Source of the DNA: a virus
Strand: one strand, 5' to 3'
IMG/VR virus record: IMGVR_UViG_3300037067_026753
DNA: 64,000 nucleotides
Below, in pieces: positions 448 to 39,829 of this stretch; position 1 is the first letter of the stretch, and each line of letters opens with the position of its first letter. The notes beneath the pieces were generated by a model. It made no database searches and was not told the DNA's origin. It saw only the letters and a program-made list of their open reading frames with translations. Both the position numbers and the translations under genes were made by a program.

Positions 448-1509
448 TTATTCACCAAACCACCTCGCATAAAGACGCCAGTATAAATCTGTTCTCATAA
501 AATCTACAAGATGTTCATTTAATGATTCTCTATATGGGCTATCTTGTTTTAAAGCAAACCCATAGGATTGTTTGTCAAACATTTCGCCTGCAATTTTACA
601 CCTTTTTTTCCCAGCATTACTCACATAATATTTTAAAGTAGGCATATCGAAAATAACAGCATCAACTTTATTATTTGCAAGCAAATCATATGCATCTTCG
701 ATTTTTTCTGTATATGTACCTATGCAACTCATTCCTTTGACATAAGCTTCTGCTGTTGTCCCTTTTTCCGTAGCAACTTTTTTCTCGATTAAATCTTGTA
801 CAGAATTTATAGCTGATTCCGTTTTTTCCGTAGTCAAAGCTGTATTCATAGAAGCAATAATGTACGGGAAAATAAACCCAATCCCGACTAGCATAACAAT
901 AATAGTGATAAATTTACCTATTGGAGTTTGTGGTGTTTTGTCTCCATAACCTACTGTTGTAATTGTAGTTATGATCCAATATAGCCCGTCACCTGCACCT
1001 TTAATTGGATTTTTATGAAATAGTCTACCCCGTTCTACAACCCATATGCCAATAATACCTAGAAGTAAAAAAACACCAAATATTTTAAAAGGAGTACCCA
1101 TTTGCTTGAAATAAAGAATCAAAACATTCAAGATATTTACTTCTTTATCTTTATTGACACAAATACTTAAACCGGAATTCAAATAAGGGTGTGAGAAATC
1201 AAATTTGGCTTCTCTTTCCCCAGTGATAGTAATTCCAGAAATTGCAGCATCATAAATACCATTTTGCATCCCATCTAAAAGTTCTGAGAAAGTAGCCGGT
1301 ATTTCATACTTAATATCTAATTTTGCTCTTTTTGCAATTTCCTCAAATACTTCAACGTCAAAGCCTGTCGGATTTTTCCCTTGTTCAAGAATAACACAAG
1401 GAGGAAAATCATAGACCGCAACTTTTAAAGTATCAGAAGAAACTGAAAAAGAGACAAGTAATATAAACAATACAACAAAACTCTTCATACTTGTCTCTAT
1501 TCCCTTCAT
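448..1509 (-). CDS. GluR0-like ligand-gated K+ channel: a periplasmic substrate-binding domain split around an M1-P-M2 pore
   Basis: Signal peptide (MKSFVVLFILLVSF). Two SBP_bac_3-like lobes flank two TM helices and a pore loop with the K+ selectivity filter TTVGYGD. This S1-M1-P-M2-S2 order is the prokaryotic iGluR (GluR0) architecture. Confidence 0.75.
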   Translation of the reverse strand: MKGIETSMKSFVVLFILLVSFSVSSDTLKVAVYDFPPCVILEQGKNPTGFDVEVFEEIAKRAKLDIKYEIPATFSELLDGMQNGIYDAAISGITITGEREAKFDFSHPYLNSGLSICVNKDKEVNILNVLILYFKQMGTPFKIFGVFLLLGIIGIWVVERGRLFHKNPIKGAGDGLYWIITTITTVGYGDKTPQTPIGKFITIIVMLVGIGFIFPYIIASMNTALTTEKTESAINSVQDLIEKKVATEKGTTAEAYVKGMSCIGTYTEKIEDAYDLLANNKVDAVIFDMPTLKYYVSNAGKKRCKIAGEMFDKQSYGFALKQDSPYRESLNEHLVDFMRTDLYWRLYARWFGE

Positions 1510-2382: not shown

Positions 2383-3066
2383 TTAAGTAGACGTAGACTT
2401 CAAACGAGCCATACGAGCTGAAACACCTGATGTTCCGAGCGCCTGTCTCGTTTGATTTTCAAGTGATTCAGAAGTACCTGATTCTTTCATTGTCTGACTT
2501 TTAATCAGACGTTTCCTTGCTTCTTCTTTTCGAGTATTAAATGAAGAAAGCGCCGATGCTCCGGAATTTGAAGTGATTGTTGCAAGTTTCTCATTAGCTG
2601 AAGCCGCATCAGTCATTGCTTTGAGCGTAACAAGATCCGTTTCAGCCTGCTGCAAGGCGTTTTCAAGATCACGTCGAGTCGCCTGCTGTTCTTCGAGCAA
2701 CCCTCGCTGTACCTTGAGCGCCTCTTCAATTGAAGTCACCTGCTTCTCGAGACTCTCGGCAGCCAGGCAATGTTGCTCAGCAAGTTGCTCATTTTTTGCA
2801 GCCATAAGAGCTTTGGCATCGTCGTCATGTTTTTTAATTTGGTTTTCAAAATCATGCTTCTTGTCTTCAAGAATCGCAATTTCGCCTTTGATTGATCCGA
2901 TATTTCCCTTGACCTTATCAATATCACTGCGTAACTGAGCAAGATCTTGTTTGCCGAAATCGACAGCATGTTCTGCTGCAATCCCATCTGCTGCTTTCTG
3001 AGCTCTTGCATCAGCAACTTTTCCGATGTTTGTAAACAGACTGAAAAAACCGCCACCTTTTCCCAT
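2383..3066 (-). CDS. PspA/IM30-family coiled-coil protein (phage-shock protein A-like)
   Basis: N-terminus MGKGGGFFSLFTNIGKV resembles PspA MGIFSRFADIV. Long heptad-rich helical sequence with a charged, Q/E-rich C-terminus. Confidence 0.6.
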   Translation of the reverse strand: MGKGGGFFSLFTNIGKVADARAQKAADGIAAEHAVDFGKQDLAQLRSDIDKVKGNIGSIKGEIAILEDKKHDFENQIKKHDDDAKALMAAKNEQLAEQHCLAAESLEKQVTSIEEALKVQRGLLEEQQATRRDLENALQQAETDLVTLKAMTDAASANEKLATITSNSGASALSSFNTRKEEARKRLIKSQTMKESGTSESLENQTRQALGTSGVSARMARLKSTST

Positions 3067-3081
3067 ACTCTCACCTTCTTT

Positions 3082-3486
3082 CTATTCGACAATTGTTGAA
3101 ATTTTTTCGACGCCTTGTTTAACCATACCGAGCGTCCAACCGAGAGCAGCCTCAAGCTCATTGAGATCGAGATTTGCGATTTCAAGATTTTCCTTGAAGT
3201 AGACTTTTTTGCCATCCGAAGAGAATTTACCATGAACTGCCTGATGATTGAGTTCAAGCAGGTATTTGAACAGCAAAAACTGTTTTGATTCATCTTCAGG
3301 CACATCACAGATTTCTGATGCAATGCACACTAAAGTCGGTTCGACATCAATAAGACAGGAAAAACCTTCAGGTCCCCTGACTTCGAAAATATCTTCTCGA
3401 GTCTGGTTGTAGGCAATTCCTTCGATGTCGCACAACATTCCCAGAACAATAGAAGCATTCTGGATTTCAATTGTTGACACTGTCAT
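3082..3486 (-). CDS. small cytoplasmic protein, tentatively YbjN-like
   Basis: 134 aa, acidic, in an operon with the PspA-like gene. The family call rests on size and composition only. Confidence 0.4.
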   Translation of the reverse strand: MTVSTIEIQNASIVLGMLCDIEGIAYNQTREDIFEVRGPEGFSCLIDVEPTLVCIASEICDVPEDESKQFLLFKYLLELNHQAVHGKFSSDGKKVYFKENLEIANLDLNELEAALGWTLGMVKQGVEKISTIVE

Positions 3487-3501: not shown

Positions 3502-4095
3502 TTAATGATTGTGTAACAACTCAACATCATCAACACGTACTTCACATCCGTACCACACTTCAATGAACCCCCCAAGCTTATTGCCTGTCCATTCAATAAA
3601 ACAATGAGGATTACCACGAGAATCATCAGCTGTAAAATATTCAGCAATAGTTTTCGGGTCGCTCTCACCGGATTGTGTCGACTTTGTTTCAATCCCAAAC
3701 TTGCTATCACCTTGACGATCCCACGTGACTTCTACATCATCTTCACCGAAATGAAGAGTTGCATTGAACCGATCAATCAGATCATCCTTGAGTGCATCAA
3801 ACAATGGGACAAAATCTTCAGATGGACCACTTGAATCCATATAAAAAACCCGAAGATCAAAATTTGCCCCGATTTGTCTGACCATAAGCATGATTGTTTG
3901 TTCATCACCGACAGATGGTTTATAAGAAGCAAAATAGCAGGTATAGGTAAAATAACTGCTTGGTTCTTTATAAGTTCTGACCTCAGTGATTATAAAATCG
4001 ACACTTAACATATTAAATTCAGTTTGGGTTTGAAGATCGCTTAAAGTAACAATGTCGTTTTTCCCAAACCCAAGATACTCTTTAATAGTTTTCAT
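3502..4095 (-). CDS. hypothetical protein; start taken at the internal MKTIKEY
   Basis: ATGA overlap with the upstream gene at 4092-4095. No motif. Confidence 0.45.
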   Translation of the reverse strand: MKTIKEYLGFGKNDIVTLSDLQTQTEFNMLSVDFIITEVRTYKEPSSYFTYTCYFASYKPSVGDEQTIMLMVRQIGANFDLRVFYMDSSGPSEDFVPLFDALKDDLIDRFNATLHFGEDDVEVTWDRQGDSKFGIETKSTQSGESDPKTIAEYFTADDSRGNPHCFIEWTGNKLGGFIEVWYGCEVRVDDVELLHNH

Positions 4096-4862
4096 GAGAA
4101 CTTCTTTCTTAAGAAGATAGCAGCACAAACAATCACACCAATGATTACCAAGAATGTAATCAGAACAGCAGTTCCTGACACTGGTGTATGTCGAATTGGT
4201 TTTCCATAGTTATCCCACTCACCATAACCATGGTGTGCCATCGTCATGTTGTCAGCAATCATATCAGCTGCAACAAGTGCCACAAGCATATTTGTGGTTG
4301 GATCGACACGACCATATCCATAACCACCTCCTGGCAGTTGTCCATAGGTTACTGGTACTGAAGAACCATTATATACAACAGTCTTCGGTATATAGTCAGG
4401 TGTCGTTGTAGGAGCAGTCGGAGTCGTAAATTTATTTGCATTAGCCATTTTTTGACGATATGCAGTTTCAGCTGAAGCTTTAGTGCCGTACGTTTTTATT
4501 GCCGTCGTATTTTTTTGCGCCATAGTTTTTCGAGTTTGTCTGTCGAGTGTACTTGTCGAAACAGCTCTGGGTTTCGTAGATTTCGAAGTACCTGATGAAG
4601 AAAAAGATGAGCCCGAATTTTTACGTGAACCTATAGATGAAGATGTTGGTGCCGTAGCTTTTTTTGTTGTCCCTGAACTGCTTCTGAATGTTGAACCGCT
4701 GTTTGACCTTGATGGGCTCGAGCTTGAACTTCTGAAACTCGAGCCTGACGATCTAGAACTGCTACTGCTCCTTGATGAACTGGTCGATCCACGAGCAATA
4801 ATATCAGAAACACCTATGAGTACTGACAAACAAAGCACAAAATGAAAAGGTGCTATTTTCAT
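4092..4862 (-). CDS. Ser/Arg-rich low-complexity secreted protein with a C-terminal TM anchor
   Basis: N-terminal signal peptide, about 80 aa of S/R/T low complexity (SSRSSSSSRSSGSS...) and a C-terminal hydrophobic helix. It is the first gene of the PspA operon. Confidence 0.5.
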   Translation of the reverse strand: MKIAPFHFVLCLSVLIGVSDIIARGSTSSSRSSSSSRSSGSSFRSSSSSPSRSNSGSTFRSSSGTTKKATAPTSSSIGSRKNSGSSFSSSGTSKSTKPRAVSTSTLDRQTRKTMAQKNTTAIKTYGTKASAETAYRQKMANANKFTTPTAPTTTPDYIPKTVVYNGSSVPVTYGQLPGGGYGYGRVDPTTNMLVALVAADMIADNMTMAHHGYGEWDNYGKPIRHTPVSGTAVLITFLVIIGVIVCAAIFLRKKFS

Positions 4863-4991: not shown

Positions 4992-5498
4992 ATGGACGAT
5001 TTAGTTCAAATAAAGTTTGAAAAATTTTGTGGACAGATCAAAAAATCAAAATTGTCCCATTCTATTATTAGAACAAAAATAGAACAATGTGACAAAAGTC
5101 TATCTATATGGAAAGAGAAACTTAATGACTTAGAAAAAACTTTAGGTATTGGAACAGCATATTGGGGTATTATTTCTTTAGAAAGCAAATTTAGCAATTA
5201 TTGTAGACTTTGTATAGAAGTAAAAGATGATGGTTTCCATTTAGAGTTTCTCAAAGGTTCACCCTTTGATAGTTTTTTAAAAACAGTACAATGTTTTGAA
5301 GAGGATGAAGTTATTTGTTATAATGGGGATGACAGTCTAATAAAATTAGCAATTAAATATAGAAAAAAAGGACTTTTAAAACCTTTTGAGAAAAACCAAG
5401 ATTTTATAGATAAATATTTCTATAATTACATGCATATTATGAAACGTGAATTAATATTAAGATTTTACAACTTTTTAATTGAGCAATATAATGAATAA
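4992..5498 (+). CDS. hypothetical protein
   Basis: Intact 168-aa ORF whose stop overlaps the next gene's start. No motif. Confidence 0.45.
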   Translation: MDDLVQIKFEKFCGQIKKSKLSHSIIRTKIEQCDKSLSIWKEKLNDLEKTLGIGTAYWGIISLESKFSNYCRLCIEVKDDGFHLEFLKGSPFDSFLKTVQCFEEDEVICYNGDDSLIKLAIKYRKKGLLKPFEKNQDFIDKYFYNYMHIMKRELILRFYNFLIEQYNE

Positions 5499-6021
5499 AC
5501 TAATTTTCCCCCTTCAATTTGCTTTTATTATGTGGCTTGTGTTTTTTATTGATGCTCTTATTATACCTATAAATTTTAATAAATATGGCATTCTACCAAG
5601 ACATATAGAAGGTCTTATAGGAATTCTTCTTATGCCCTTTCTTCATGCAAATTTGTTTCATCTTATTAGCAATACAATACCCATTATTATTTTACTTTGT
5701 ATTGTTTCATTCTTCTTTTCAAAAAATTTAGAAATTGTAACAAGTATTTCCACTTTAGGCGGATTCTTTCTATGGCTTGTAGGTCGTAATTCTTACCATG
5801 TTGGTGCAAGCCTTTTAATCTTCGGTCTTGCAAGTTTCATTATATTCTTTGGAATCTTTAAAAAACAATTTTTTCCTTTAATTCTTTCAATTTTAATTTG
5901 TATAACTTACGGGACATCTCTACTTATTGGGCTCCTGCCTATTTTCCCGGGTGTTTCATGGGAGGCACATTTATGTGGTACTGTTGCTGGATTCATAACA
6001 GCAAAACAATTGGCAAAATAA
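5479..6021 (+). CDS. rhomboid-family intramembrane serine protease
   Basis: Six predicted TM helices. Catalytic-type motifs HVGASLLIFGL (GxSx) and AHLCGTVAGF (AHxxG). Confidence 0.65.
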   Translation: MSNIMNKLIFPLQFAFIMWLVFFIDALIIPINFNKYGILPRHIEGLIGILLMPFLHANLFHLISNTIPIIILLCIVSFFFSKNLEIVTSISTLGGFFLWLVGRNSYHVGASLLIFGLASFIIFFGIFKKQFFPLILSILICITYGTSLLIGLLPIFPGVSWEAHLCGTVAGFITAKQLAK

Positions 6022-6046: not shown

Positions 6047-6526
6047 ATGAGTGATATTACTGTCTATTTAACTACAACAAAATGGACAATTGCAACAGAT
6101 CATCCAAATCATGATTTTTTTGTAAAAAAAGATGTCCCTGTCTGTTGTGCTGCAATGATAATTGCTTCATTTGGATTCTCTCCCCATGAACTTGAAACAA
6201 TCGAATTCCGTTGGGCAAAAATCATGAAAGAAATGGCAAAACTGGTTTTAATTGACTCAAATAAAAAAACTGTTTATATTGGAGAAGAGAGTGAAAATTC
6301 AGGTTTAATCGAATACACAGAACAAACTGGTAGCGAATACAGTAAACATTTTTTTGAACGCTGGGATCAAACACAAACTCTTATGCTAGAATTCATAATT
6401 TATGACAAAAATAACAAACCAATCACTTGTTTAAAAGGCCTCTGGGACATAAACCATTGGGATTATCTTGATTTTTTTCCAACAAATAATATTCAAATTG
6501 TTAGTCCTTCTCATAATTCAAAATGA
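6047..6526 (+). CDS. hypothetical protein
   Basis: Intact ORF overlapping the GNAT gene start. Confidence 0.45.
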   Translation: MSDITVYLTTTKWTIATDHPNHDFFVKKDVPVCCAAMIIASFGFSPHELETIEFRWAKIMKEMAKLVLIDSNKKTVYIGEESENSGLIEYTEQTGSEYSKHFFERWDQTQTLMLEFIIYDKNNKPITCLKGLWDINHWDYLDFFPTNNIQIVSPSHNSK

Positions 6527-6912
6527 ATTTAGATTTGGGCAAAATATCTGTCAGTGTTTCTGATACATGTATTTCTATTTATTGGGTAGAAAATCTTGGA
6601 CATAATGCATGTGTAGAATCTGATCAGATTATCCCAAATCATTGGATGATTACTAGAGCTCTTGTTAGACCTGATGGTTATAGAAACCAGGGTCTTGGTT
6701 CTCATTTATTGAAAATTTTAATCGAAGAAATAAAAAAGAAAAAAGGAAAAAGTATTCTTGTTACTCCAGGTGGTTATGATGGAGAAACAGAAAAACAATT
6801 TCGCTTTTATGAAAAAAATGGGTTTATTACTCCCAAACAAGATCAAATTCCTGCTGTTTTTGACATAACAAAACAAGAACATTTAAATCAAACAAGAATC
6901 TTTTTATTATAA
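6523..6912 (+). CDS. GNAT-family N-acetyltransferase
   Basis: Acetyl-CoA binding motif A: RPDGYRNQGLGSHLLKILIEE ... FYEKNGF. Confidence 0.6.
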   Translation: MNLDLGKISVSVSDTCISIYWVENLGHNACVESDQIIPNHWMITRALVRPDGYRNQGLGSHLLKILIEEIKKKKGKSILVTPGGYDGETEKQFRFYEKNGFITPKQDQIPAVFDITKQEHLNQTRIFLL

Positions 6913-6985
6913 TGCCCTTACCCAGATTCGAACTGAGATAGACACCGTTTTAGAGACGGCCGCTTTACCATTAAGCCATAAGGGC
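6913..6985 (-). tRNA. tRNA with anticodon CUA (amber suppressor-type; amino-acid identity not determined)
   Basis: Minus-strand 73-nt cloverleaf read by eye. Acceptor GCCCTTA/TAAGGGC with discriminator A. U8. D-stem GCTT/AAGC with loop AATGGTA carrying GG. Anticodon stem GCCGT/ACGGT and loop CTCTAAA with U33 and A37, giving anticodon CUA. T-stem CTCAG/CTGGG with a canonical TTCGAAT loop. The variable region is 6 nt, which is slightly unusual. Confidence 0.65.
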
Positions 6986-6986
6986 T

Positions 6987-7292
6987 TTATGCTGTTTTTA
7001 ATTCCTTAAAAATAATTCCATCGTCATAACATGCAATTGCAGTTAATTGGCCTTCAAGATCAGGTTCGTGAAAACTCCTATGGATTTTCCCAGATTCAGA
7101 TACTTTTGCGTGCCATGCTTTCAGTTCAAGCAAGTTACGAACTTTGAGAAAGACAATTGTTGAATTTCCCCAAATTTTGAATTGTTCAGGGAAATCAAGC
7201 GCGTATTGCGCAAGGGCATGACTGCCCTGCACAATACGATATGTCTCAGAAAGATCAGCACGCACTAACACATACATTTTCAGTGTAGGCAT
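6987..7292 (-). CDS. PTH2-type peptidyl-tRNA hydrolase (archaeal/eukaryotic type)
   Basis: KMYVLVRADLSETYRIVQGSHALAQYAL matches the PTH2 core (…VVRTDL…QCSHA…). Start placed at the internal MPTLKM. Confidence 0.55.
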   Translation of the reverse strand: MPTLKMYVLVRADLSETYRIVQGSHALAQYALDFPEQFKIWGNSTIVFLKVRNLLELKAWHAKVSESGKIHRSFHEPDLEGQLTAIACYDDGIIFKELKTA

Positions 7293-7554
7293 TTTTGATC
7301 TCCTGGACTTTGGCCATATCAGGTTTATTATTTTCAGCACAACATTTTTCAATTTGTTCATAAGTCTTTCCTTTCAAAAGACTGTAAGCTATATGATGTA
7401 AACGATAATCTTTTGCCAAATATTTTAATTGTTTAAAATAACCTCCGTCAGCACCACTATTACTTTTTTGATAAAGTTTGAGTTCTGCTGTCAGAGTTCT
7501 TATGATTGCAGCTTGTTCTTTTAAATAATTTTTGAGATTTAATATCTTTGACAT
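7255..7554 (-). CDS. hypothetical protein
   Basis: 99-aa ORF. Its 3' end would overlap the PTH2 start, so the call is uncertain. Confidence 0.3.
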   Translation of the reverse strand: MSKILNLKNYLKEQAAIIRTLTAELKLYQKSNSGADGGYFKQLKYLAKDYRLHHIAYSLLKGKTYEQIEKCCAENNKPDMAKVQEIKNAYTENVCVSAC

Positions 7555-7854
7555 TGCTAGTCTCCTGTTTATTATTGTTTTGAGTTCTGTTTGAAGATAC
7601 AGTTACAATAAAAACGGGAGACTTACAGAGGTTTAAAAACTCTTACCTATATAAAACCAATAATCTACTGCATTTTTGTCTCTTTTTAAAAGTTTATATT
7701 TGCTTTCCTTTTAAATATAATCTAAAAATTTCAAAAAGGAAACAAAAATATGATCGAGTCACTAAAACTTTCAAATCGTAAAAAGCAGATAAGCACGAAT
7801 TCATGAAAAGACCATATTGGCAAAATAAAAATGCTATTGTGATTTATTAATAAT

Positions 7855-8100
7855 ATGCTTAAAATTTCAAGGCCTAATAAAGAAAATAAGTCTAAGATAA
7901 TTTCATTACGGCTGAAACCTAATCAGATGAAGGACGTTTTAAAATTAAAAGGCGACCTTAAGTTTGAGACTGTTACAGACTTAATGTGTTATTCTTTAGA
8001 TATTTTTAAACGCTTACATGAATGGAAATTATTAAACTATCATTTTTATATTGCTAATCCAGAAAATAAAAATTACAAAGAGGTCGAACTTGAATTATGA
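7855..8100 (+). CDS. hypothetical protein; first gene of a translationally coupled operon
   Basis: ATGA overlap with the next ORF. Confidence 0.45.
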   Translation: MLKISRPNKENKSKIISLRLKPNQMKDVLKLKGDLKFETVTDLMCYSLDIFKRLHEWKLLNYHFYIANPENKNYKEVELEL

Positions 8101-8420: not shown

Positions 8421-8664
8421 AACCCTTGAATGCGTTCAATGCGGCTTTTGTTGCACGCTTGGTCCTTGTCCCTTTGGTGATTGGAACCCTATCACTCACC
8501 AGTGTAATTATTTAACCGTCAATAATAAATGTTCGAAATATGATGAAATCAAACAAAATCCATTTTCTAATTTCTCGCCAGCATTTGATACTGGCTGTTC
8601 ATCAACAATTGGAAATATTAGAAGAAAAAATAAAATAAGAGAGTTACTATGCTCTCAGAAATAA
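8413..8664 (+). CDS. YkgJ-type CxxCxxCC metal-cluster protein
   Basis: CVQCGFCC motif (CxxCGxCC) plus additional Cys residues. Confidence 0.5.
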   Translation: MFETLECVQCGFCCTLGPCPFGDWNPITHQCNYLTVNNKCSKYDEIKQNPFSNFSPAFDTGCSSTIGNIRRKNKIRELLCSQK

Positions 8665-8936
8665 CGACCTGTTCAATTTGCAGGAGAGAAACACCAGAAA
8701 AATTTTTAGAAAAACACCATCTGACTCCTGCTTCAAAAGGTGGTAAAGGCGGAAAAACAATTCTAGTATGCATTGATTGTGGAAATCAAATCCATTTGCT
8801 TTTCACAAATAATGAGTTAAGAGATTCCTACAATACTCTCGAAAAACTACTTGAACATCCTAAGATAAAAACTTGGATCAAATGGATTCGAAAACAAAAA
8901 TTCGGTGTATGTATGAAGGAGAAGAAAAAGAAATAA
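8649..8936 (+). CDS. small HNH endonuclease
   Basis: CSIC...EKHHLTPASKGGKGGKTILVCIDCGNQIH matches the HNH pattern (HH..P..GG..N..LC..CH) with a zinc-binding Cys pair. Confidence 0.55.
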   Translation: MLSEITTCSICRRETPEKFLEKHHLTPASKGGKGGKTILVCIDCGNQIHLLFTNNELRDSYNTLEKLLEHPKIKTWIKWIRKQKFGVCMKEKKKK

Positions 8937-12225: not shown

Positions 12226-13242
12226 TTGAACAACTACATTTTTCACCAGATAGTGACAATCCCATGTTCAAATCAACAAATTTTGGGAGCTGCTAAACAT
12301 ACAGGAGACACTTTGTTAATCAATTTTATAATATTACTTGCTGGCATAGCTATTGCTGGGCTTGGTGGCGACATTTTCGTACGGGGCGCTGTAGGACTTG
12401 GACGCTGGGCACGTATTTCACCTGCTATAATAGGTGTTACAATTGCTGCTTTTGCTACATCAAGCCCAGAACTATCTGTCGCAATCAATTCAGCTCTTTC
12501 TGGTACACCTCAAATCTCTCTTGGTGACTGCCTCGGCAGCAATGTCGTCAACATAGCTTTAATACTTGCTATTGCTCTTTTAATCTCAAACATAAAAACG
12601 ACAAGAGAAAGCATTAAACGTGATTTTCCTGTTGCATTATTCATACCTTTACTTACACTCTTGCTTTTCATTGACAATAATTTCTCGCGTCTTGACGGTA
12701 TCATCACTATATCTATTTTCTTAACCTGGCTTATTTTTACAATACTCCATATCATCAAACATAAAAAACAGCAAGCACAGATTTCTACTTTACATCCAGG
12801 ACTCATTTTGCTTTTCTGTACGCTTGGGCTTATATTACTCATTACAGCTGGCAAATGTATAGTTCATGGTGCAAGCAATATAGCAGCTACATTCGGTATT
12901 AGTTCGTTCATCATAGGTGCAACTATTGTTGCTGTTGGCACATCAGTACCAGAACTTGCTACAACTATTATTTCAAAATTACGGGGCCACGACGATATAA
13001 GCTTAGGCACTATTATCGGCAGTAACATATTCAACGGCTCGTTCATCATACCACTTGCTGCTATTATTAACCCTATCAATCAACCTGTAACTTCAATCAT
13101 TGTACCACTTGCTTTCAGCACGCTTTGTCTATTTACCTGCTACCCTACACGCTCGGGCACCATAACAAAACAACAAGGCGTAATTTTGCTAGGCATTTAC
13201 ATAATCTATATCGTTCTTGTACTTACTGGAGTATCTAAATGA
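12226..13242 (+). CDS. CaCA-family Na+/Ca2+ antiporter (YrbG-like)
   Basis: About 10 TM segments with two alpha-repeat motifs, GTSSPELSVAI and GTSVPELATTIIS. Confidence 0.7.
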   Translation: MNNYIFHQIVTIPCSNQQILGAAKHTGDTLLINFIILLAGIAIAGLGGDIFVRGAVGLGRWARISPAIIGVTIAAFATSSPELSVAINSALSGTPQISLGDCLGSNVVNIALILAIALLISNIKTTRESIKRDFPVALFIPLLTLLLFIDNNFSRLDGIITISIFLTWLIFTILHIIKHKKQQAQISTLHPGLILLFCTLGLILLITAGKCIVHGASNIAATFGISSFIIGATIVAVGTSVPELATTIISKLRGHDDISLGTIIGSNIFNGSFIIPLAAIINPINQPVTSIIVPLAFSTLCLFTCYPTRSGTITKQQGVILLGIYIIYIVLVLTGVSK

Positions 13243-28710: not shown

Positions 28711-29796
28711 TTACGGCTCCGGAAAGAAACCGGCACCGGCCAGAATGGAGCTTGCCTTGCGCACAATGCTCTTCTTGTTTTTCGGGTTTGTACTTGCTAA
28801 ACCCGCAAGTTCTGCAGGTACACTTTCGCCCGGAAGATTCTGGATAAGGGCCAGTGTAATCTCGATGATTTCGTTCCCGGTGAGTCCGTCCAGTGAAATT
28901 TTACCACCGGATTGCGTCGTCTTGAGTTCGGCTATCTTGTCAGCGTGAATTCTGGCCATCTCAGCCCGCACAACTTTCTTGTTGGCCTTCTTGGTTCCGG
29001 TTTCTTTCTTTTCACTGTTCCGGCGCATGGATTTCTCGGTGGCGTGGTCCAGCAATGGAATTGCGTTCGGGTCAATTTCCTTGCCAGCGTTGAGTGACAC
29101 AACCTCGTAGCGGCATACCCGCATTTTCTGGTTGTTGTAGTCTTCAGGCACCGCAACCACGTCTCGGGGATTTACCTTGACCTCGATCTTGACGTTATGG
29201 TTATACTGACTCCAGACGTAGTCGAAAGCAGCAACATGCAAGCCGTTGCTGCAAGTTTCTCTGCGGCTCGGGTTGACTCTGGCACGGTCCATGGTAACCA
29301 CTGCACCGATATTATTGCAGAAGTTACCAGTATAAGCGTCTACCAGATCGCCTTTATCGTTGCGGTTCACGCCCTTGTACGCAAGGAAGCAACCGTCGTG
29401 TGTGATGACCATCCTGTTGGCTTCCAGGAAAAGAAACAAGTGCGCCTTGCTCTCTTCGCTGGGATTTGATTGAATGTTGCGCCAGAAGTTGAGCAGCGGT
29501 AAATACGGCAGCTCTTTTCTTGCGAACTCGACGATACGATCGATGATCACATCATGTACTTCGGTACCGTCAATCATGACGGTACCAGCATCGCGGTCAA
29601 CGCTGAATTCGCCCTGGCCGTAGTTTTCGATTTTCTTGGCGACATCCAGCTGAGCAAGTATTTCATCGTCACTTGCGCCGGATGTGAGAAGCGGCAAGAT
29701 TTTGTCATGCTTCTCGGAACCGATTTCCAGGGTGATGGGCCGCATCGACCCGATCGATACCACCAGGTATCTACCTGTGGACAACCATTGTGCCAT
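28711..29796 (-). CDS. hypothetical protein (361 aa)
   Basis: Element at 29797-29840. No motif. Confidence 0.5.
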   Translation of the reverse strand: MAQWLSTGRYLVVSIGSMRPITLEIGSEKHDKILPLLTSGASDDEILAQLDVAKKIENYGQGEFSVDRDAGTVMIDGTEVHDVIIDRIVEFARKELPYLPLLNFWRNIQSNPSEESKAHLFLFLEANRMVITHDGCFLAYKGVNRNDKGDLVDAYTGNFCNNIGAVVTMDRARVNPSRRETCSNGLHVAAFDYVWSQYNHNVKIEVKVNPRDVVAVPEDYNNQKMRVCRYEVVSLNAGKEIDPNAIPLLDHATEKSMRRNSEKKETGTKKANKKVVRAEMARIHADKIAELKTTQSGGKISLDGLTGNEIIEITLALIQNLPGESVPAELAGLASTNPKNKKSIVRKASSILAGAGFFPEP

Positions 29797-30682: not shown

Positions 30683-32860
30683 TTATACCAGTTTACCTGC
30701 CTGTATTAAGGCATTTTCACGTTCCGTTATGTATTCTTGTATTGTGCTTGAGTTGCAATCAAGCTCATACCGGCTCAAGTAATTGAGCATAGGGAACGAC
30801 TTGTACATGGCATCAATCTGTGTTTTCAAGTTGCTCAACTGGCTTGTTGCCGCATATTTTTTCACCAGCTCATCAGGCACCGTTATTTCAAGCTTTATTG
30901 ACAAACTCTTTATAAGAGTCATCAAGTCACAAAAGGTTTTGCTTGCATATTTGTATCTCTGCAACCAGGTTTTGTCGCCCACAATTGTCATTATACTGCT
31001 TGCATCGATCAATTGTGTAATTATCGCTGGTGTAAGTAACTTGCGTTTCTCATCAAGACTCTCAACCAGACCAACCAGCCTTGAACCCCGGTTTTTATTT
31101 GCATATATTACATTGAATGCAGGTACCAGTTTCGCTTTCATTGCAATACGGAGCATCCGATACTCATCATCCTGGTATGAAATGTTCGGTATCTGGAGTA
31201 TATCATCCACAAGCACCAGAGCATAGTTAGCCGACGTAAAAGGCGAACCGCTCTCGCTTGTTATTTGATTTCCATCAACCTTGATATATTGATAAGTGCC
31301 CGGTTTGCTGGATGCACCCCGTCTTGCATAGTGGATATCCTGGTCAAAATATTGTATCCAGACTTTGAGCGTATCAGGTTGACGGACACTGGGTATTTTC
31401 ACCGTACCAGCATTAGTTTTGGTCACTTTCATCTTTTCAACTTGGCTATATAAGGAATATGTTATGCCCAGTTTTGCAAGCGTTTTAATATCCTTGAGAT
31501 ACCGGCGGTAACCCTTGTTGATTGTCCTGCGGTCTTCTTTATTGAGTTCCCAATACCGCAAGTACTTGGGTTCCGTAGGCCGTATGGCTATATAATCGTT
31601 CCCGCCAGCAAAGATCGTGGCATCCTTTAAAGGTATATAGGACGGTGTTGCATCGAACAAGAAGACTCTGTCTTTGATAAGTGAAGTACTGATTTCAGTT
31701 GTCTTTGTTCTGGTCACTTTCCCGTGGTCATTTGACACATCAAAAAACTGGAGCGTCTGGAAATGACTGTCAAGCCGCAGATTCAATGACCGGTTGTCAA
31801 AGTTCTTCACCTCTTTCCAGTACGGGTCACTACCTGATAAATGTGCATCAAGGTACTTGTAAAGCGTCCCTTGTTTTGTGCTCTGATAAAACAAAGCAGC
31901 CTGCAACCAGGTAGTGCATTTCTTGAACTCAGTTTGATAGACAGACTTGACTTCATTTATAAAAGCCACAAAAGCAAGATTGATTGCGCTCTTTGTTTTC
32001 TCGTCGTACTGGACATGTTCCCGGTTAGCACTTATTGTAAGCACACCAACCGGAAACTTGAATATGACTTGGTGGTCATAAATGGTGTGTCCTGCCCAGT
32101 TGATTTGTGAACTTGAAATCGGGTAGAAGATACCGTCAAGCAACAACCCATATCCCTGACCCAGGAAATCCTGCTTGACTATCATGAATTGGTCGTTGTC
32201 AAGCACCGTTTCGATTTTGAGGCGTTCAAGTTTGAGCCCGAAGTTTTTGTATACCGGGCGCATCGGCCAGAAGATAGTTGCTTTGTAGCATTCCTGCTCA
32301 AAGTTAGTACGGTCGCCTGATTTGATCGGGACCAGTATCGTTGTACCGTTAGCTTCTTGCGTTTCAGCCGTATCAATGCAGTATATTTTGCCCTTGCGGC
32401 CCTGTTCGATTGCAGCCACATAAGTATACTTGATACCAGCAACGATTGTTTCGATCGTAAAATTGTCTGTGTAACTGAAAGGCGTTTTGGCGCCCAAGCC
32501 AAAGCCACCAGTGAAAGTGTCGCTCTCTCTCTTGGTTGAACTCCCGTAGTTGACAAACACATCAGCCATGCGTTCAGGAGATATACCAGTACCGAAATCC
32601 TTAAAGTATATCACCATGTCGCTCATGCTCAAGTGGCTGTTGGCAATACCAATTTCGATCGGTACGTTGTTTTCAGCTTCACGGTTGGCGTCTCTGGAAT
32701 TGCTGCTCACTTCCCTGCAAATTGCACCAATTGGGTTACTGTACAACTTGCTGCGCAGTATTTCGAGTATCAAGCCCATATCAGCTTCTTTGATACCGAA
32801 ACTGAGCTCTTGGAATGCAGCGCTCGTTGTTACGGTTGTCGGTTTGCCTGCTAACTTCAT
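30683..32860 (-). CDS. GHKL-superfamily ATPase (HATPase_c N-terminal domain) with a large uncharacterised C-terminal region
   Basis: N-box EVSSNSRDANRE, G1 box DFGTGIS and G2 box TGGFGLGAKT in the first ~200 aa. No Toprim or MutL C-terminal motifs seen. Confidence 0.6.
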   Translation of the reverse strand: MKLAGKPTTVTTSAAFQELSFGIKEADMGLILEILRSKLYSNPIGAICREVSSNSRDANREAENNVPIEIGIANSHLSMSDMVIYFKDFGTGISPERMADVFVNYGSSTKRESDTFTGGFGLGAKTPFSYTDNFTIETIVAGIKYTYVAAIEQGRKGKIYCIDTAETQEANGTTILVPIKSGDRTNFEQECYKATIFWPMRPVYKNFGLKLERLKIETVLDNDQFMIVKQDFLGQGYGLLLDGIFYPISSSQINWAGHTIYDHQVIFKFPVGVLTISANREHVQYDEKTKSAINLAFVAFINEVKSVYQTEFKKCTTWLQAALFYQSTKQGTLYKYLDAHLSGSDPYWKEVKNFDNRSLNLRLDSHFQTLQFFDVSNDHGKVTRTKTTEISTSLIKDRVFLFDATPSYIPLKDATIFAGGNDYIAIRPTEPKYLRYWELNKEDRRTINKGYRRYLKDIKTLAKLGITYSLYSQVEKMKVTKTNAGTVKIPSVRQPDTLKVWIQYFDQDIHYARRGASSKPGTYQYIKVDGNQITSESGSPFTSANYALVLVDDILQIPNISYQDDEYRMLRIAMKAKLVPAFNVIYANKNRGSRLVGLVESLDEKRKLLTPAIITQLIDASSIMTIVGDKTWLQRYKYASKTFCDLMTLIKSLSIKLEITVPDELVKKYAATSQLSNLKTQIDAMYKSFPMLNYLSRYELDCNSSTIQEYITERENALIQAGKLV

Positions 32861-33687: not shown

Positions 33688-34566
33688 TTAGTTCGCCAGT
33701 GCAACCGCCGTTTTCCAGGCTTCCTCTTTCAGGTAACTGGCGCCCAGCACGCTGTTTGCCAGCCGTGTTTCTGCATCCGCACTCCGGTAATGATCAATCC
33801 ACTCGATATAACCGTTGTACAAGTCGTACAACGTCCCCTGCCCGGTGCCCTTACCGGCTTCGTAAAGTTCGGTCACCTTGTTTATCAGGTTTTTCTGGCG
33901 GGTCCCGCCCTCTGCACCGCTGAAGCATTCCTTGATGAATTTGTCAACCATGGCCGCATCGCACACCACCTGTGCAAGCACCTTGCACTGTGCTTCGAAC
34001 TTGTCGAAGTAAGCGGTGCCCTGGGCAAGTATCCGCATGGCTTCACCGGCTTTGACTTCGCCGTTTTTGGTATGATGCACTTTGCATTTATTTTCGTTCG
34101 CCCAGCCCATCAGGCCGTTCTTGCATACCTGACGCCAGACGCGGTAGATCGCCGTGAAGGGATAGGAACCGTCGAAGGTGTTGATCAGCTGAATTTTACG
34201 GAATGTTTCGTCGCCCTTGCGTATTTCAACCGGGCTCCCCACCGTGGCTTCCAGGATGAGTTTGCGCCCGCCGTCGATCACGTATGCACTGGTGTACTTG
34301 GCGTTGTTCTGCTGACATGCGGTATCGAACCAGGCATATGCAAAGGAGTTCTGCAAGGGAGTATACCGATCTCCCACTAGCCCGATGATTGCGTGATTGT
34401 CGCTCCGCACCACGGCTTTGTTGTCCGGGATTTTGATACCTGCAGGTATGTCGCCGGCACCGAGAGTCTGTATGGGCACCAGTTCGGCGCGCCATTTTGA
34501 TTCGCTCTTATCGAGCGCTTCTTCTGCGGTTGTAACTCCGCCAAGGTCATAAAACGTTGCTTTCAT
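33688..34566 (-). CDS. hypothetical protein (292 aa), tentatively DUF932-like mobile-element protein
   Basis: Own element at 34567-34620. The family resemblance is from memory only and unverified. Confidence 0.4.
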   Translation of the reverse strand: MKATFYDLGGVTTAEEALDKSESKWRAELVPIQTLGAGDIPAGIKIPDNKAVVRSDNHAIIGLVGDRYTPLQNSFAYAWFDTACQQNNAKYTSAYVIDGGRKLILEATVGSPVEIRKGDETFRKIQLINTFDGSYPFTAIYRVWRQVCKNGLMGWANENKCKVHHTKNGEVKAGEAMRILAQGTAYFDKFEAQCKVLAQVVCDAAMVDKFIKECFSGAEGGTRQKNLINKVTELYEAGKGTGQGTLYDLYNGYIEWIDHYRSADAETRLANSVLGASYLKEEAWKTAVALAN

Positions 34567-37290: not shown

Positions 37291-38379
37291 TTACTTGCCA
37301 CATATTTTCTTTATATCAGGTTCGGGCACCCATATGCCCTGGTATTTTGTCAACTCTCCATTGCACTTAAATAATAACTCTCCAGCTCCTTTAAGGCGCT
37401 CAGCCCCCGGCTCATCAAGTATTATGCGACTATCTTGTCTGCTCTCTACTCTAAAAGCCACCCTTGCTGGCATGTTAGCCTTTATCAAACCTGTCATTAT
37501 TTCGACTACCGGGCGCTGTGTTGCCATTACAATATGCATACCAGCAGCCCTTGCCAACTGTGCCAACCGAGTTATTTTATCACTTATTGTCTTGTCTTCG
37601 CTCTGCATCATCAAGTCAGCCACCTCATCAATTACCAAAACTATATATGGTAACTTTGTTTTGGCTACTTGGTTATATGCATCAAGAGATTTAACGTCGT
37701 GCCTTGCAAGCAACTCATACCGGCTCTCCATTTCGTCTACCAAACTACTAAGCAAACCGCTTGCTTGGTCAAGTTTAGTAGCTATAGGTGCATACAAGTG
37801 CGGTACGCTCCGGTACAAAGCAAACTCAACCCGTTTTGGGTCAACCAATGCGAGTTGCACTTGCTCCGGCTGTAATTTATACAACAAACTCAGTATAGCA
37901 ACGTTCAAGAAAACAGATTTACCCGAGCCAGTAGTACCGGCTACCAATAAATGGGGCATACGGCTCAAATCAATTACCTTGTTTGCGCTCAATACTACTG
38001 GCAACCGCTCATTTGCTATATGATTAAAGGTTGTTATGCCCGTAAAATCAAGTGGAGTGGCATTAACTACAGGAGTGCTAACGTCTGGTGTAGTTGATGC
38101 CACTAAATCTGCAGGAAACATTATCAAATACTTGCTCACTTCAAAATCAATCTCTCCTATATATTTAAGGTCGCGCTCAATTTTATCAAGCTTACTCGCT
38201 ATCATCCCTACGTTCACACGTTTTATGCGCTCTACCTCGTCCTCCACCTCACTATAATGTAACCTGGCCTGCATTTGCCTTATGTCTAACGGGCTCGCGC
38301 CGCACCCTACCATGCTACTCAACGTTTTACACAACGCCCGGTCAACTTTCAAAGTTTCCAATATCTCCTTAAGATTCAT
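37291..38379 (-). CDS. FtsK/SpoIIIE-family DNA translocase ATPase (soluble motor domain only)
   Basis: Walker A LVAGTTGSGKSV. Walker B IVLVIDEVADLMM. FtsK signature ATQRP…ARVAFRV. No N-terminal TM region or gamma domain. Confidence 0.75.
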   Translation of the reverse strand: MNLKEILETLKVDRALCKTLSSMVGCGASPLDIRQMQARLHYSEVEDEVERIKRVNVGMIASKLDKIERDLKYIGEIDFEVSKYLIMFPADLVASTTPDVSTPVVNATPLDFTGITTFNHIANERLPVVLSANKVIDLSRMPHLLVAGTTGSGKSVFLNVAILSLLYKLQPEQVQLALVDPKRVEFALYRSVPHLYAPIATKLDQASGLLSSLVDEMESRYELLARHDVKSLDAYNQVAKTKLPYIVLVIDEVADLMMQSEDKTISDKITRLAQLARAAGMHIVMATQRPVVEIMTGLIKANMPARVAFRVESRQDSRIILDEPGAERLKGAGELLFKCNGELTKYQGIWVPEPDIKKICGK

Positions 38380-39337: not shown

Positions 39338-39568
39338 TTACCCAGCAAATCTATGTGCAGCCTCTATCTCTTCTCTGCTCAATATACTCTCTTCCTTATA
39401 AACTATAACTACCGGCGCTCTATCCTCCTCCAACCCAGTATTATAAGCAACACACTCTACTACATGCAATGCCTTCTCAAAGCGCTCCTGATATAGCCGC
39501 GCCTCTTCTCTCCCAAACTCCTTATTCACCGCAAGCAGCTCCCTCAATTTTTTCGTTTCTATCAGCAT
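39338..39568 (-). CDS. hypothetical small protein
   Basis: SD AGGAGGAATAGTT then ATG. Confidence 0.45.
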   Translation of the reverse strand: MLIETKKLRELLAVNKEFGREEARLYQERFEKALHVVECVAYNTGLEEDRAPVVIVYKEESILSREEIEAAHRFAG

Positions 39569-39570
39569 AA

Positions 39571-39782: not shown

Positions 39783-39829
39783 TATCGCCCGAACATCTAT
39801 TACATTGCCAACACAGAACGACACCTAGC

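What the first reader, a model, noticed from the sequence alone, without database searches (positions are those of the whole stretch)
6913..7292. tRNA with a CUA anticodon (amber suppressor-type) next to a PTH2-type peptidyl-tRNA hydrolase
The 73-nt minus-strand tRNA folds into a canonical cloverleaf with U33 and A37 flanking anticodon CUA, which would read UAG. Its T-loop is TTCGAAT and its D-loop carries GG. ORFs called with the standard code in this window are long and intact. So this looks like a standalone suppressor or selfish tRNA, not evidence for a recoded genome. Alternatively it is used by a co-resident recoded phage. It sits tail-to-tail with a PTH2-family hydrolase, an archaeal/eukaryotic-type enzyme that is rare in bacteria, giving a small cluster of unusual translation factors. 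Caveat: the variable region is 6 nt by my fold, so the anticodon assignment needs software confirmation.
Basis: seen in the sequence. Interest (0 to 1): 0.7.

Follow-up and report, generated by a model that had tools for sequence, protein, structure and literature searches.

The report
Phage amber-suppressor tRNA with PTH2 partner
The tRNA that reads the UAG stop codon is real. It is the last gene of a small three-gene unit (an unknown basic helical protein, a divergent PTH2-type peptidyl-tRNA hydrolase, then the tRNA) that recurs in well over a hundred huge-phage contigs, and I could not find this linkage described.

Summary
It is not tRNA-Pyl.

The neighbouring 101-aa ORF (6987-7292, -) misses Pfam's PTH2 threshold. 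It is a PTH2 homologue by profile search against PDB sequences and by predicted fold (pLDDT 96; TM about 0.8 to archaeal and human Pth2).

The genes are co-oriented, and the tRNA starts 2 nt after the hydrolase's stop codon.

A third gene, a basic 99-aa helical-hairpin protein (7255-7554, -), overlaps the hydrolase start.

This trio is conserved. A suppressor tRNA (CUA, rarely UUA) lies by the hydrolase homologue in 28 of 31 first loci and 58 of 77 metagenome loci. These include Lak megaphages, the 735-kb phage and cultured Tenacibaculum phage pT24. In three contigs the two proteins are fused.

The window shows no TAG recoding: 19 of 120 genes end in TAG. The element looks like a huge phage binned into a "Nanoarchaeia" MAG.

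Phage suppressor tRNAs and phage PTH2 are each known. Their specific linkage appears undescribed. The mechanism, hydrolase clean-up of peptidyl-tRNA by-products of stop-codon decoding, is inferred, not shown.

The parts
6913..6985 (-). tRNA with anticodon CUA, an amber-suppressor type. Class I, 6-nt variable loop, A73, no encoded CCA.
   Evidence: ARAGORN. Rfam RF00005 at 60.8 bits, full length. Stems parsed. The sequence is identical in 8 other assemblies.
6987..7292 (-). Divergent PTH2-like peptidyl-tRNA hydrolase homologue, 101 aa. Its TAA stop lies 1 nt before the tRNA's 5' end.
   Evidence: Pfam PTH2 at 17.5 bits, below the cut-off. PHROG 1866 and 3668 'hydrolase'. Profile hits to PDB Pth2 chains. 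AF2 pLDDT 96.4. Foldseek top 13 hits are all Pth2-family structures, 12 named Pth2 or Bit1 chains and Ta0108, at TM 0.74-0.82. Family-invariant residues Q22, H25, A26, E76, D78 and T84.
7255..7554 (-). 'up99': a 99-aa basic protein (pI about 9) made of a helical hairpin plus short helices. It overlaps the hydrolase start by 38 nt.
7300..7304 (-). Shine-Dalgarno AGGAG, 8 nt before the hydrolase ATG (7292) and inside the 3' end of up99. This suggests translational coupling.
   Evidence: Read from the sequence.
7562..7566 (-). Shine-Dalgarno AGGAG before the up99 ATG (7554).
   Evidence: Read from the sequence.
7555..7854 (-). A 300-nt AT-rich intergenic region upstream of up99, divergent from the gene at 7855-8100 (+). 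It is the presumed promoter region of the unit.
   Evidence: Only consensus-level promoter-like matches, for example TTGAAA-16-CATATT at 7774-7747. Not verified.
6523..6912 (+). GNAT acetyltransferase converging on the tRNA's 3' end. It is a neighbour, not a conserved member of the unit.
   Evidence: Pfam Acetyltransf_7. Homologues occur only in the closest relatives L013, L020 and L021. No specific similarity to tRNA-acetylating toxins among solved structures.

Best explanation
The tRNA is a functional UAG-decoding (amber suppressor) tRNA of a huge phage. The 64 kb seen here uses the standard genetic code.

The tRNA is made as the 3' end of one transcript, up99 - PTH2-like hydrolase - tRNA(CUA), and is released by RNase P and 3' processing. 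This step is inferred from three facts: a 1-nt spacing, the same strand, and overlapping coupled ORFs.

During infection the tRNA inserts an amino acid at UAG codons in host and/or phage messages. The amino acid is not determined.

The two proteins act together. The basic helical hairpin docks the esterase on RNA, either the tRNA or the ribosome. The esterase hydrolyses the peptidyl-tRNA (or N-blocked aminoacyl-tRNA) that stop-codon decoding generates. Such products could arise by drop-off in competition with release factor, or from ribosomes that read through and stall. Hydrolysis keeps the single-copy suppressor tRNA and the ribosomes recycled.

Shown here: the tRNA, the PTH2 fold, the gene order, its wide conservation and the protein fusions.

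Inferred: co-transcription, enzymatic activity, and the clean-up role.
For: - The tRNA is canonical.
- The PTH2 fold and the conserved QxxHA and E/D...T motifs are present.
- In the first 31 loci, a suppressor tRNA lies within 2.4 kb of the hydrolase homologue in 28. It is on the same strand in 27. It is the nearest tRNA in 21, including loci with 13-32 tRNAs.
- In an independent metagenome set, 50 of 77 evaluable loci have a suppressor tRNA 4-56 nt downstream, and 8 more have one elsewhere in the locus.
- The slot holds very different tRNA bodies: class I with 4-9-nt variable loops, class II, and A, G or U at position 73. Almost always the anticodon is CUA or UUA. So the link is to stop-codon reading, not to one tRNA lineage.
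- In the reverse direction, 27 of 120 IMG/VR loci chosen only for a class I CUA tRNA carry the hydrolase.
- up99 is conserved upstream and is fused to the hydrolase in three contigs. It is basic.
- tmRNA genes lie next to the unit in L027 and L030.
- Standard-code context: the window; 156 module loci show no excess of TAG-spanning alignments; cultured phage pT24 has intact structural genes and 21 of 157 TAG stops.
- Literature: PTH2 in jumbo phages has been proposed for ribosome rescue (PMC7824862). PTH2-like genes occur in mycobacteriophage tRNA arrays (PMC5966550). Jumbo phage XacN1 has CUA suppressors with no identifiable target genes (PMC5852040).
Against: - No activity data exist.
- The residue aligned with the catalytic Lys of Pth2 is R, K, C or G in this family, and the catalytic Asp aligns with an invariant Glu. 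The chemistry may therefore differ.
- TAG ends 16% of window genes, with no enrichment of back-up stops. An efficient constitutive suppressor would extend many of the phage's own proteins.
- In Lak megaphages the linked tRNA is UUA. That is hard to reconcile with plain suppression if, as their low G+C suggests, most Lak genes end in TAA (not measured here).
- A general clean-up enzyme does not obviously need such tight linkage to one tRNA.
- Co-divergence of protein and tRNA is weak beyond close relatives (rho 0.10).
- 17 of 77 metagenome loci and several distant homologues (Aeh1, RAS14, LR756504) lack a nearby suppressor tRNA.
Confidence: 0.45

Rival explanations
1. Code-change machinery. The genome of more than 420 kb has TAG-recoded late (structural and lysis) genes outside this window, as in Lak and crAss-like phages. 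The tRNA exists to decode them. The hydrolase and up99 are accessory parts of that switch.
For: - The hydrolase family occurs in Lak megaphages. Their loci here show 30 TAG sites spanned by homologue alignments in 40 kb, with Q the commonest partner.
- Recoded phages keep their suppressor tRNA in standard-code regions and recode late genes (bioRxiv 10.1101/2021.08.26.457843).
- The window has low G+C and contains no capsid, portal or tail genes to test.
Against: - The 64-kb window and about 20 kb of flanks have no recoded gene.
- 156 module loci (1.5 Mb) show 45 TAG-spanning sites per Mb, against 154 for TGA and 64 for TAA, and Q does not dominate. CUA loci without the hydrolase show 128-158 per Mb, Q-dominated, with 25 loci flagged as recoded.
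- Cultured phage pT24 carries the tRNA and the hydrolase but has intact standard-code sheath, terminase and portal genes.
- TAG is a normal stop codon in the window.
Confidence: 0.25
2. The proteins act on the suppressor tRNA itself rather than cleaning up after it. One version: they are a brake that deacylates or sequesters it, so read-through is timed. The other version: the tRNA guides the up99-hydrolase pair to stop codons, giving termination or rescue that does not need a release factor.
For: - Very tight and specific linkage to tRNAs with a stop anticodon, whatever the tRNA body.
- Fusion of a basic helical hairpin to the esterase, an arrangement reminiscent of ArfB's hydrolase domain plus helical tail (the ArfB comparison is from my own knowledge).
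- The UUA version in the low-G+C Lak phages, where a true ochre suppressor would probably be costly.
Against: - The tRNAs look like ordinary elongator tRNAs: 7-bp acceptor stems, G18G19, TPsiC, many with encoded CCA.
- Canonical Pth2 does not hydrolyse unblocked aminoacyl-tRNA (my own knowledge).
- A 100-aa domain and a full acceptor arm cannot both occupy the ribosomal A site. This is inference.
- Nothing here tests binding.
Confidence: 0.12
3. The linkage is positional only. PTH2-like genes are ordinary residents of phage tRNA regions, and the suppressor tRNA sits beside one by shared ancestry, without functional coupling.
For: - PTH2-like genes are reported inside tRNA arrays of cluster C mycobacteriophages (PMC5966550) and across jumbo phages (PMC7824862).
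- Many loci here have large tRNA arrays nearby.
- Protein and tRNA co-divergence is weak.
Against: - In arrays of 13-32 tRNAs the suppressor is still the nearest tRNA and on the same strand.
- The arrangement persists while the flanking genes differ completely.
- The slot holds unrelated tRNA bodies that share only the stop anticodon.
- In the window, L013 and the Lak loci the suppressor is the only tRNA in 20-64 kb.
Confidence: 0.1
4. It is a pyrrolysine (or selenocysteine-type) tRNA of a cellular genome, as the ARAGORN label and the NCBI 'Nanoarchaeia archaeon' label might suggest.
For: ARAGORN prints 'tRNA-Pyl'. The NCBI record name is archaeal.
Against: - The tRNA has G18G19, a TPsiC-type T loop, a 5-bp anticodon stem and a 6-nt variable loop. 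None of these is typical of tRNA-Pyl, and it has no long arm or 8-9-bp acceptor stem as in tRNA-Sec.
- No Pyl synthesis genes, aaRS or release factor appear in the window sweep.
- The genes use AGGAG Shine-Dalgarno sites.
- Relatives carry sigma-70 and tmRNA and are classed as viral.
Confidence: 0.02

Closest known systems
Suppressor tRNAs of stop-codon-recoded phages (Lak megaphages, crAss-like, 'Jade', 'Agate' and others; Borges et al., bioRxiv 10.1101/2021.08.26.457843; Devoto et al., PMC6784885)
   Same: A phage-encoded tRNA with a CUA anticodon, in a large, low-G+C phage, placed in a standard-code part of the genome. The same hydrolase family is present in Lak genomes.
   Different: No in-frame TAG was found in this window or in 1.5 Mb of module loci. 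Those papers list tRNAs, release factors and aaRS as code-change parts, but the word 'hydrolase' does not occur in the Borges text, and 'peptidyl-tRNA hydrolase' does not occur in the Lak or huge-phage papers.
CUA suppressor tRNAs of standard-code jumbo phages, such as Xanthomonas phage XacN1 (PMC5852040)
   Same: Amber suppressor tRNAs in a jumbo phage whose TAG-terminated genes show no meaningful read-through products. A peptidyl-tRNA hydrolase is encoded in the same genome.
   Different: In XacN1 the tRNAs sit in terminal-repeat arrays and the hydrolase (ORF295) is reported separately. No operon-like linkage or third protein is described.
PTH2 (PF01981) peptidyl-tRNA hydrolases of archaea and eukaryotes, and their jumbo-phage copies (Iyer et al. 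2021, PMC7824862; PTH2-like genes in mycobacteriophage tRNA arrays, PMC5966550)
   Same: The same fold (TM about 0.8) and the same core motifs. Presence in jumbo phages and near tRNA genes is already reported, with a ribosome-rescue role proposed.
   Different: - This family falls below Pfam's threshold.
- It is shorter (about 100 aa) and near-neutral in charge.
- It has Glu where the catalytic Asp is, and a variable residue where the catalytic Lys is.
- It comes with a dedicated basic partner, up99.
- It is specifically linked to stop-anticodon tRNAs. Neither paper mentions suppressor tRNAs.
'Code change operon' of TGA-recoded Jade phages (RF1 + TrpRS + suppressor tRNA; Borges et al.)
   Same: A compact phage gene cluster that pairs a suppressor tRNA with protein factors acting on the translation step that the tRNA perturbs.
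   Different: The partners are different (a hydrolase and an unknown helical protein, not a release factor or aaRS). The stop codon is different. No recoded genes are seen nearby.
Bacterial ribosome-rescue hydrolases (ArfB; Pth acting in RQC). This comparison is from my own knowledge and was not tested here.
   Same: An esterase domain combined with a basic helical element, and genomic company with tmRNA in some loci.
   Different: No sequence or fold relation to the GGQ domain or to Pth1. Binding to the ribosome is pure inference.

Membership tests
tRNA (Rfam RF00005) | Full-length cloverleaf that scores above the family's gathering threshold | tested here: met
   60.8 bits against 29, model positions 1-71 of 71. 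ARAGORN call. Stems of 7, 4, 5 and 5 bp, all paired.
Nonsense (amber) suppressor tRNA | Anticodon CUA in a 7-nt loop, with U33 and a purine at position 37 | tested here: met
   The loop is CUCUAAA. The same loop occurs in 72 of 97 linked tRNAs.
Nonsense (amber) suppressor tRNA | Is aminoacylated and inserts an amino acid at UAG in vivo | not testable with these tools
   Needs a reporter assay or mass spectrometry. Identity elements are ambiguous (A73, G1-C72, C2-G71, C3-G70). No close isoacceptor was found among 260 phage tRNAs.
tRNA-Pyl | Small D loop without G18G19, a 3-nt variable loop, a 6-bp anticodon stem, an atypical T loop, and pylS/pylBCD genes in the genome | tested here: not met
   The D loop AAUGGUA has GG, the variable loop is 6 nt, the anticodon stem is 5 bp and the T loop is UUCGAAU. 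No Pyl genes appear in the window sweep.
PTH2 peptidyl-tRNA hydrolase (Pfam PF01981) | Scores above Pfam's gathering threshold | tested here: not met
   17.5 bits against 23. Only 2 of 94 homologues carry a precomputed PF01981 hit.
PTH2 peptidyl-tRNA hydrolase (Pfam PF01981) | The PTH2 alpha/beta fold | tested here: met
   AF2 pLDDT 96.4. Foldseek hits 2zv3, 3erj, 1wn2, 1q7s and 1xty at probability 1.0 and TM 0.75-0.82. Profile hits to PDB Pth2 sequences.
PTH2 peptidyl-tRNA hydrolase (Pfam PF01981) | Catalytic Lys and Asp (S. solfataricus K18 and D86, numbering from my own knowledge) conserved | tested here: inconclusive
   The Asp position aligns with an invariant Glu76 and the following Thr84 is invariant. 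The Lys position is R, K, C or G.
PTH2 peptidyl-tRNA hydrolase (Pfam PF01981) | Hydrolyses peptidyl- or N-acyl-aminoacyl-tRNA | not testable with these tools
   An enzyme assay or pth(ts) complementation is needed.
TAG-recoded (code 15) phage | In-frame TAG codons in conserved genes, aligned with Gln in homologues. ORFs lengthen when TAG is read as sense. | tested here: not met
   For the window and its flanks. The method does detect recoding in Lak loci and in 25 other loci. The rest of the genome (more than 420 kb) was not seen.
Huge (jumbo or mega) phage | Viral hallmark genes (capsid, portal, terminase) and a genome above 200 kb | tested here: inconclusive
   - The same genes lie on contigs of 214-424 kb.
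- Relatives are in IMG/VR and in GenBank huge phages.
- rIIA, rIIB and homing endonucleases are in the window.
- No capsid or portal gene was identified in the window; the one weak large-terminase PHROG hit (E 7.8e-14) was not assigned to an ORF.
- The NCBI label is archaeal.

The most novel reading that the evidence does not exclude
The trio up99 + PTH2-like esterase + stop-anticodon tRNA is a dedicated ribonucleoprotein device. The tRNA (CUA, or UUA in Lak) supplies codon recognition. The hairpin-docked esterase acts on the peptidyl-tRNA at or after that codon. This would be a phage-encoded way to control what happens at a chosen stop codon without a release factor: timed read-through, enforced termination, or rescue. 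It would also be an obligatory protein cofactor pair for natural suppressor tRNAs.
Probability: 0.08. Interest if true: 0.9.

Novelty: new variant of a known kind. Interest (0 to 1): 0.6.

Why it matters
Phage suppressor tRNAs are the best-known means by which viruses rewrite the host's genetic code. How the cell's termination and recycling machinery is managed during that switch is still open. So is the reason why standard-code jumbo phages carry amber suppressors at all.

A conserved, sometimes fused, protein pair physically linked to stop-anticodon tRNAs gives that question a concrete and testable handle. The pair spans Lak megaphages, the largest known phage genomes and a cultured phage.

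If the proteins prove to be needed for, or to tune, natural suppression, they would also interest genetic-code-expansion work, which depends on amber suppressor tRNAs.

If instead the hydrolase is a generic clean-up enzyme, the finding is a tidy but ordinary example of huge-phage translation genes.

Tried and rejected
1. TAG recoding of the window. ORF lengthening, stop usage and homologue alignments across TAG found nothing. The single hit is an antisense-frame artefact of the channel gene.
2. CesT (3082-3486) - TAG - PspA (2383-3066) lie in one frame, which suggested a read-through fusion. They are different families and are out of frame in L013 and L014. Coincidence.
3. Back-up stops after TAG. 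The enrichment is not significant (5 of 18 against 17 of 101, p = 0.21).
4. Amino-acid identity of the tRNA. No similar E. coli tRNA, no consistently closest isotype among 260 phage tRNAs, and mixed discriminator bases and variable-loop lengths in the family. Unresolved.
5. Organism from GTDB genomes. The only hit was one distant match in an 'uncultured proteobacterium', which was uninformative.
6. Megablast of the first 20 kb against GenBank phages found no match.
8. The GNAT neighbour as a TacT- or AtaT-like tRNA acetylase opposing the hydrolase. There is no specific similarity and it is conserved only in close relatives. Dropped.
9. A ribozyme or other RNA element beside the tRNA (theta/HDV-like). 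Rfam found nothing at E <= 1.
10. The 46% G+C block as an insertion absent from other assemblies. It is contiguous in all of them.
11. Deep co-divergence of hydrolase and tRNA. Weak (rho 0.10, 35 of 500 permutations reach it).
12. My first reverse scan used a gap that selected only long-arm tRNAs. I repeated it with the correct spacing and kept the first scan as a contrast set.
Full report
**Observation**

ARAGORN finds exactly one tRNA in the 64-kb window, at 6913-6985 on the minus strand, with anticodon CTA. It labels it 'Pyl' only because of that anticodon. Rfam's tRNA model matches it end to end at 60.8 bits against a gathering score of 29.

Read from the sequence:
- 7-bp acceptor stem GCCCUUA/UAAGGGC
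- D arm with G18G19
- 5-bp anticodon stem and loop CU-CUA-AA
- 6-nt variable loop GUCUAU
- T arm CUCAG-UUCGAAU-CUGGG
- discriminator A73, no encoded CCA

The tRNA lacks the hallmarks of tRNA-Pyl and tRNA-Sec.

**The neighbouring ORF**

The ORF at 6987-7292 (minus strand, 101 aa, AGGAG 8 nt before its ATG) gives only a sub-threshold Pfam PTH2 hit, 17.5 bits against 23. It also matches two PHROGs, one annotated 'hydrolase'.

Three further results settle the homology:
- A 33-sequence profile (A1) hits only Pth2 chains in the PDB.
- The AlphaFold model is confident, pLDDT 96.4.
- Its 13 best Foldseek matches are all Pth2-family structures (M. jannaschii, A. fulgidus, P. horikoshii, S. solfataricus, human Bit1, and the unannotated T. 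acidophilum homologue Ta0108), at TM 0.74-0.82.

So it is a divergent PTH2 homologue. The QxxHA motif and a Thr are invariant. The catalytic Asp position holds an invariant Glu, and the catalytic Lys position varies. Activity is therefore plausible but not assured.

The ORF and the tRNA are co-oriented, with one nucleotide between the TAA and the tRNA's 5' end. The gene that converges on the tRNA is a GNAT acetyltransferase (6523-6912, plus strand).

**A third member**

A 99-aa ORF (7255-7554, minus strand; 'up99') has its own AGGAG and overlaps the hydrolase start by 38 nt.
- It has no Pfam or PHROG family.
- It is basic, pI about 9.
- It is predicted with confidence (pLDDT 90.8) as a long helical hairpin plus short helices.

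**Source**

The same DNA occurs in NCBI MAG GCA_028717785.1, which is labelled 'Candidatus Nanoarchaeia archaeon', and in several ENA, JGI and Logan assemblies on contigs of up to 424 kb.

Evidence that it is a huge phage that was binned with an archaeon:
- Relatives of the hydrolase lie on IMG/VR contigs of up to 467 kb with large tRNA arrays.
- Relatives also lie in Lak megaphages, in the 462-, 636- and 735-kb phages of Al-Shayeb et al., and in cultured phages.
- The window carries rIIA, rIIB and homing endonucleases.
- Its genes use Shine-Dalgarno sites.
- Relatives encode sigma-70 and tmRNA.

No capsid or portal gene was identified in the window. One large-terminase PHROG family hit at E 7.8e-14 was not traced to a gene. 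This identification therefore stays an inference.

**Conservation of the unit**

- All assemblies of this phage have the identical tRNA in the same place.
- Relatives at about 63% protein identity, with entirely different flanking genes, keep up99-hydrolase-tRNA(CUA).
- Over the first 31 loci, 28 have a suppressor tRNA within 2.4 kb of the hydrolase gene. It is on the same strand in 27. It is the nearest tRNA in 21, even where 13-32 tRNAs are present.
- An independent scan of metagenome contigs gave 77 evaluable loci. Fifty have a CUA tRNA (one a UUA tRNA) 4-56 nt downstream, 8 more have one elsewhere in the locus, 2 have a tRNA(UGU) in the slot, and 17 have none.
- GenBank phages agree. Lak megaphages have a tRNA(UUA) about 0.5-0.7 kb upstream as the only tRNA in 20 kb. 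LR756500 and LR756501 have CUA tRNAs within 0.8-2.2 kb. Tenacibaculum phage pT24 has an annotated tRNA-Sup 2.5 kb away.
- More distant homologues lack the tRNA: T4-like Aeh1, RAS14 (where the domain is part of a 261-aa protein) and LR756504.
- up99 homologues sit directly upstream in most loci and are fused to the hydrolase in three contigs.
- The hydrolase family is large: 969 clusters (50% identity) at E <= 1e-10.

**Reverse test**

Loci were picked only for a class I CUA tRNA with a common T loop. Of these, 27 of 120 carry the hydrolase (25 of 93 evaluable tRNAs). For long-arm (class II) CUA tRNAs the figure is 4 of 120. The hydrolase nearly always comes with a stop-anticodon tRNA. Only a subset of phage suppressor tRNAs comes with the hydrolase.

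**The linked tRNAs**

Ninety-seven distinct linked tRNAs fold canonically: 90 have 7 of 7 acceptor pairs and 93 have 5 of 5 T-stem pairs. Otherwise they are diverse:
- variable loops of 4-9 nt or long arms
- A, G or U at position 73 (64, 19 and 9)
- no deep co-divergence with the protein

Variable loops of six nucleotides or more are about four times commoner than in other class I tRNAs of the same loci (28 of 93 against 71 of 923). What these tRNAs share is the stop anticodon. The amino acid carried could not be inferred.

**Is the genome recoded?**

- In the window, treating TAG as sense lengthens ORFs less than doing the same for TGA or TAA.
- 19 of 120 genes stop at TAG.
- Back-up stops are not enriched after TAG.
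- I searched all fetched loci (3.4 Mb) for homologue alignments that run across an in-frame stop. Lak loci show recoding clearly, and so do 25 CUA loci without the hydrolase, with Q the dominant partner. The 156 module loci show 45 TAG sites per Mb, against 154 for TGA and 64 for TAA, without Q dominance. The window shows none.
- In pT24, 150 kb including sheath, terminase, portal and a 9.7-kb gene is intact in the standard code, with 21 of 157 TAG stops.

So the unit is common in standard-code contexts. This resembles the unexplained CUA suppressors of jumbo phage XacN1 (PMC5852040). Recoded late genes elsewhere in this genome of more than 420 kb cannot be excluded.

**Mechanism**

Shown: a genuine UAG-reading tRNA, a PTH2-fold protein, a basic helical partner, their order, and its conservation.

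Inferred:
- one transcript, from which RNase P releases the tRNA
- translational coupling of the two ORFs
- the esterase, docked by up99 on RNA, hydrolyses peptidyl-tRNA generated when a stop codon is decoded in competition with release factors, or after read-through stalls

The company of tmRNA in two loci fits this picture. So does the ribosome-rescue role proposed for jumbo-phage PTH2 (PMC7824862) and for PTH2-like genes in mycobacteriophage tRNA arrays (PMC5966550).

Three things argue against a simple reading:
- the cost of suppressing the phage's own TAG stops
- the UUA version in the low-G+C Lak phages, whose own stop-codon usage I did not measure
- the variable 'catalytic Lys' position

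Rivals are a code-change role for unseen recoded genes, proteins that act on or are guided by the tRNA itself, and mere positional linkage.

**Literature and novelty**

Phage suppressor tRNAs, code-change operons with release factors and aaRS (bioRxiv 10.1101/2021.08.26.457843), PTH2 in jumbo phages, and PTH2-like genes in tRNA arrays are all published. In the searchable library I found no paper that links PTH2 to suppressor tRNAs. 'Hydrolase' is absent from the recoding paper. 'Suppressor' is absent from the two PTH2 papers.

The tRNA alone is an ordinary member of a known kind. The conserved three-part unit is, as far as I can tell, a new variant.

Noticed in passing
window 18000-47400: A 46% G+C block inside a 33% G+C genome. 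It is contiguous in every assembly that covers the 17.3-23 kb junction. It carries rIIA (30683-32860, -), rIIB (28711-29796, -), an FtsK/SpoIIIE ATPase (37291-38379, -), DUF932 (33688-34566, -), a NikA-like protein and a DnaJ-domain protein. This is a mix of phage-type and conjugation-type genes, suggesting an old horizontal acquisition.
   Followed up: partly
window 39400-40800: A very sharp GC-skew inversion, from -0.55 to +0.66 in 400-nt windows, centred near 40050. Tandem 16-mers TCTTATAGCYGTTCAG lie at 40106-40137, with related short repeats, and gene orientation switches here. It could be origin-like or a divergent control region.
   Followed up: partly
window 448-1509 (-), 12226-13242 (+), 5479-6021 (+): Membrane and ion-transport genes in a phage-like genome: a GluR0-like channel with a solute-binding domain and a K+ channel pore, a Na/Ca exchanger, and a rhomboid protease.
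   Followed up: no
window 47447-50142 (-): Type IV pilin-like genes. One is a 367-aa protein with an N-terminal methylation motif and a PilW domain. A 526-aa ORF of unknown family lies next to it.
   Followed up: no
L007 13331-15724 (just beyond window position 1): An RtcB RNA ligase interrupted by an intein, followed by a NADAR-domain gene. These are further RNA-repair-type functions near the tRNA unit.
   Followed up: no
window 2383-3486 (-): The CesT-like chaperone gene ends in TAG and lies in the same frame as the PspA/IM30 gene 5 codons downstream, so amber read-through would fuse them. The frames differ in relatives L013 and L014, so this is probably coincidence.
   Followed up: yes
source record GCA_028717785.1 (JAQUND010000007.1): NCBI names the proteins as from 'Candidatus Nanoarchaeia archaeon'. 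The gene content (Shine-Dalgarno sites, rII genes, viral relatives with sigma-70 and tmRNA) points to a huge bacteriophage contig binned into an archaeal MAG.
   Followed up: partly
L047 9341-9413; L048 9233-9305 (Prevotella phages Lak-B7 and Lak-A1): In Lak megaphages the tRNA beside the hydrolase homologue has anticodon UUA (ochre type). It is the only tRNA in 20 kb. These phages have very low G+C, so TAA is probably their main stop codon (not measured here).
   Followed up: partly
L027 13113-13531; L030 7222-7597: Phage-encoded tmRNA genes lie within about 3 kb of the hydrolase gene in two IMG/VR contigs.
   Followed up: no
L326, L336: Two metagenome loci have a tRNA with anticodon UGU (Thr) in the slot directly after the hydrolase gene, where the others have CUA.
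   Followed up: no
L055-L294 (IMG/VR loci with CUA tRNAs): Twenty-five loci without the hydrolase show clear TAG-to-Gln recoding within a few kb of their CUA tRNA. Most of these tRNAs have long variable arms, and many come from one sample (3300045988).
   Followed up: partly
window 4092-4862 (-): A 256-aa protein with a signal-like N-terminus, a long Ser/Arg/Thr-rich low-complexity region and a C-terminal hydrophobic anchor.
   Followed up: no
window 8649-8936 (+); 59100-60026 (+): An HNH_5 endonuclease lies 1.1 kb from the unit. A homing-endonuclease-like gene (DUF7487 with a C2H2 zinc finger) lies further away. The HNH gene is absent near the unit in L013 and L014.
   Followed up: no
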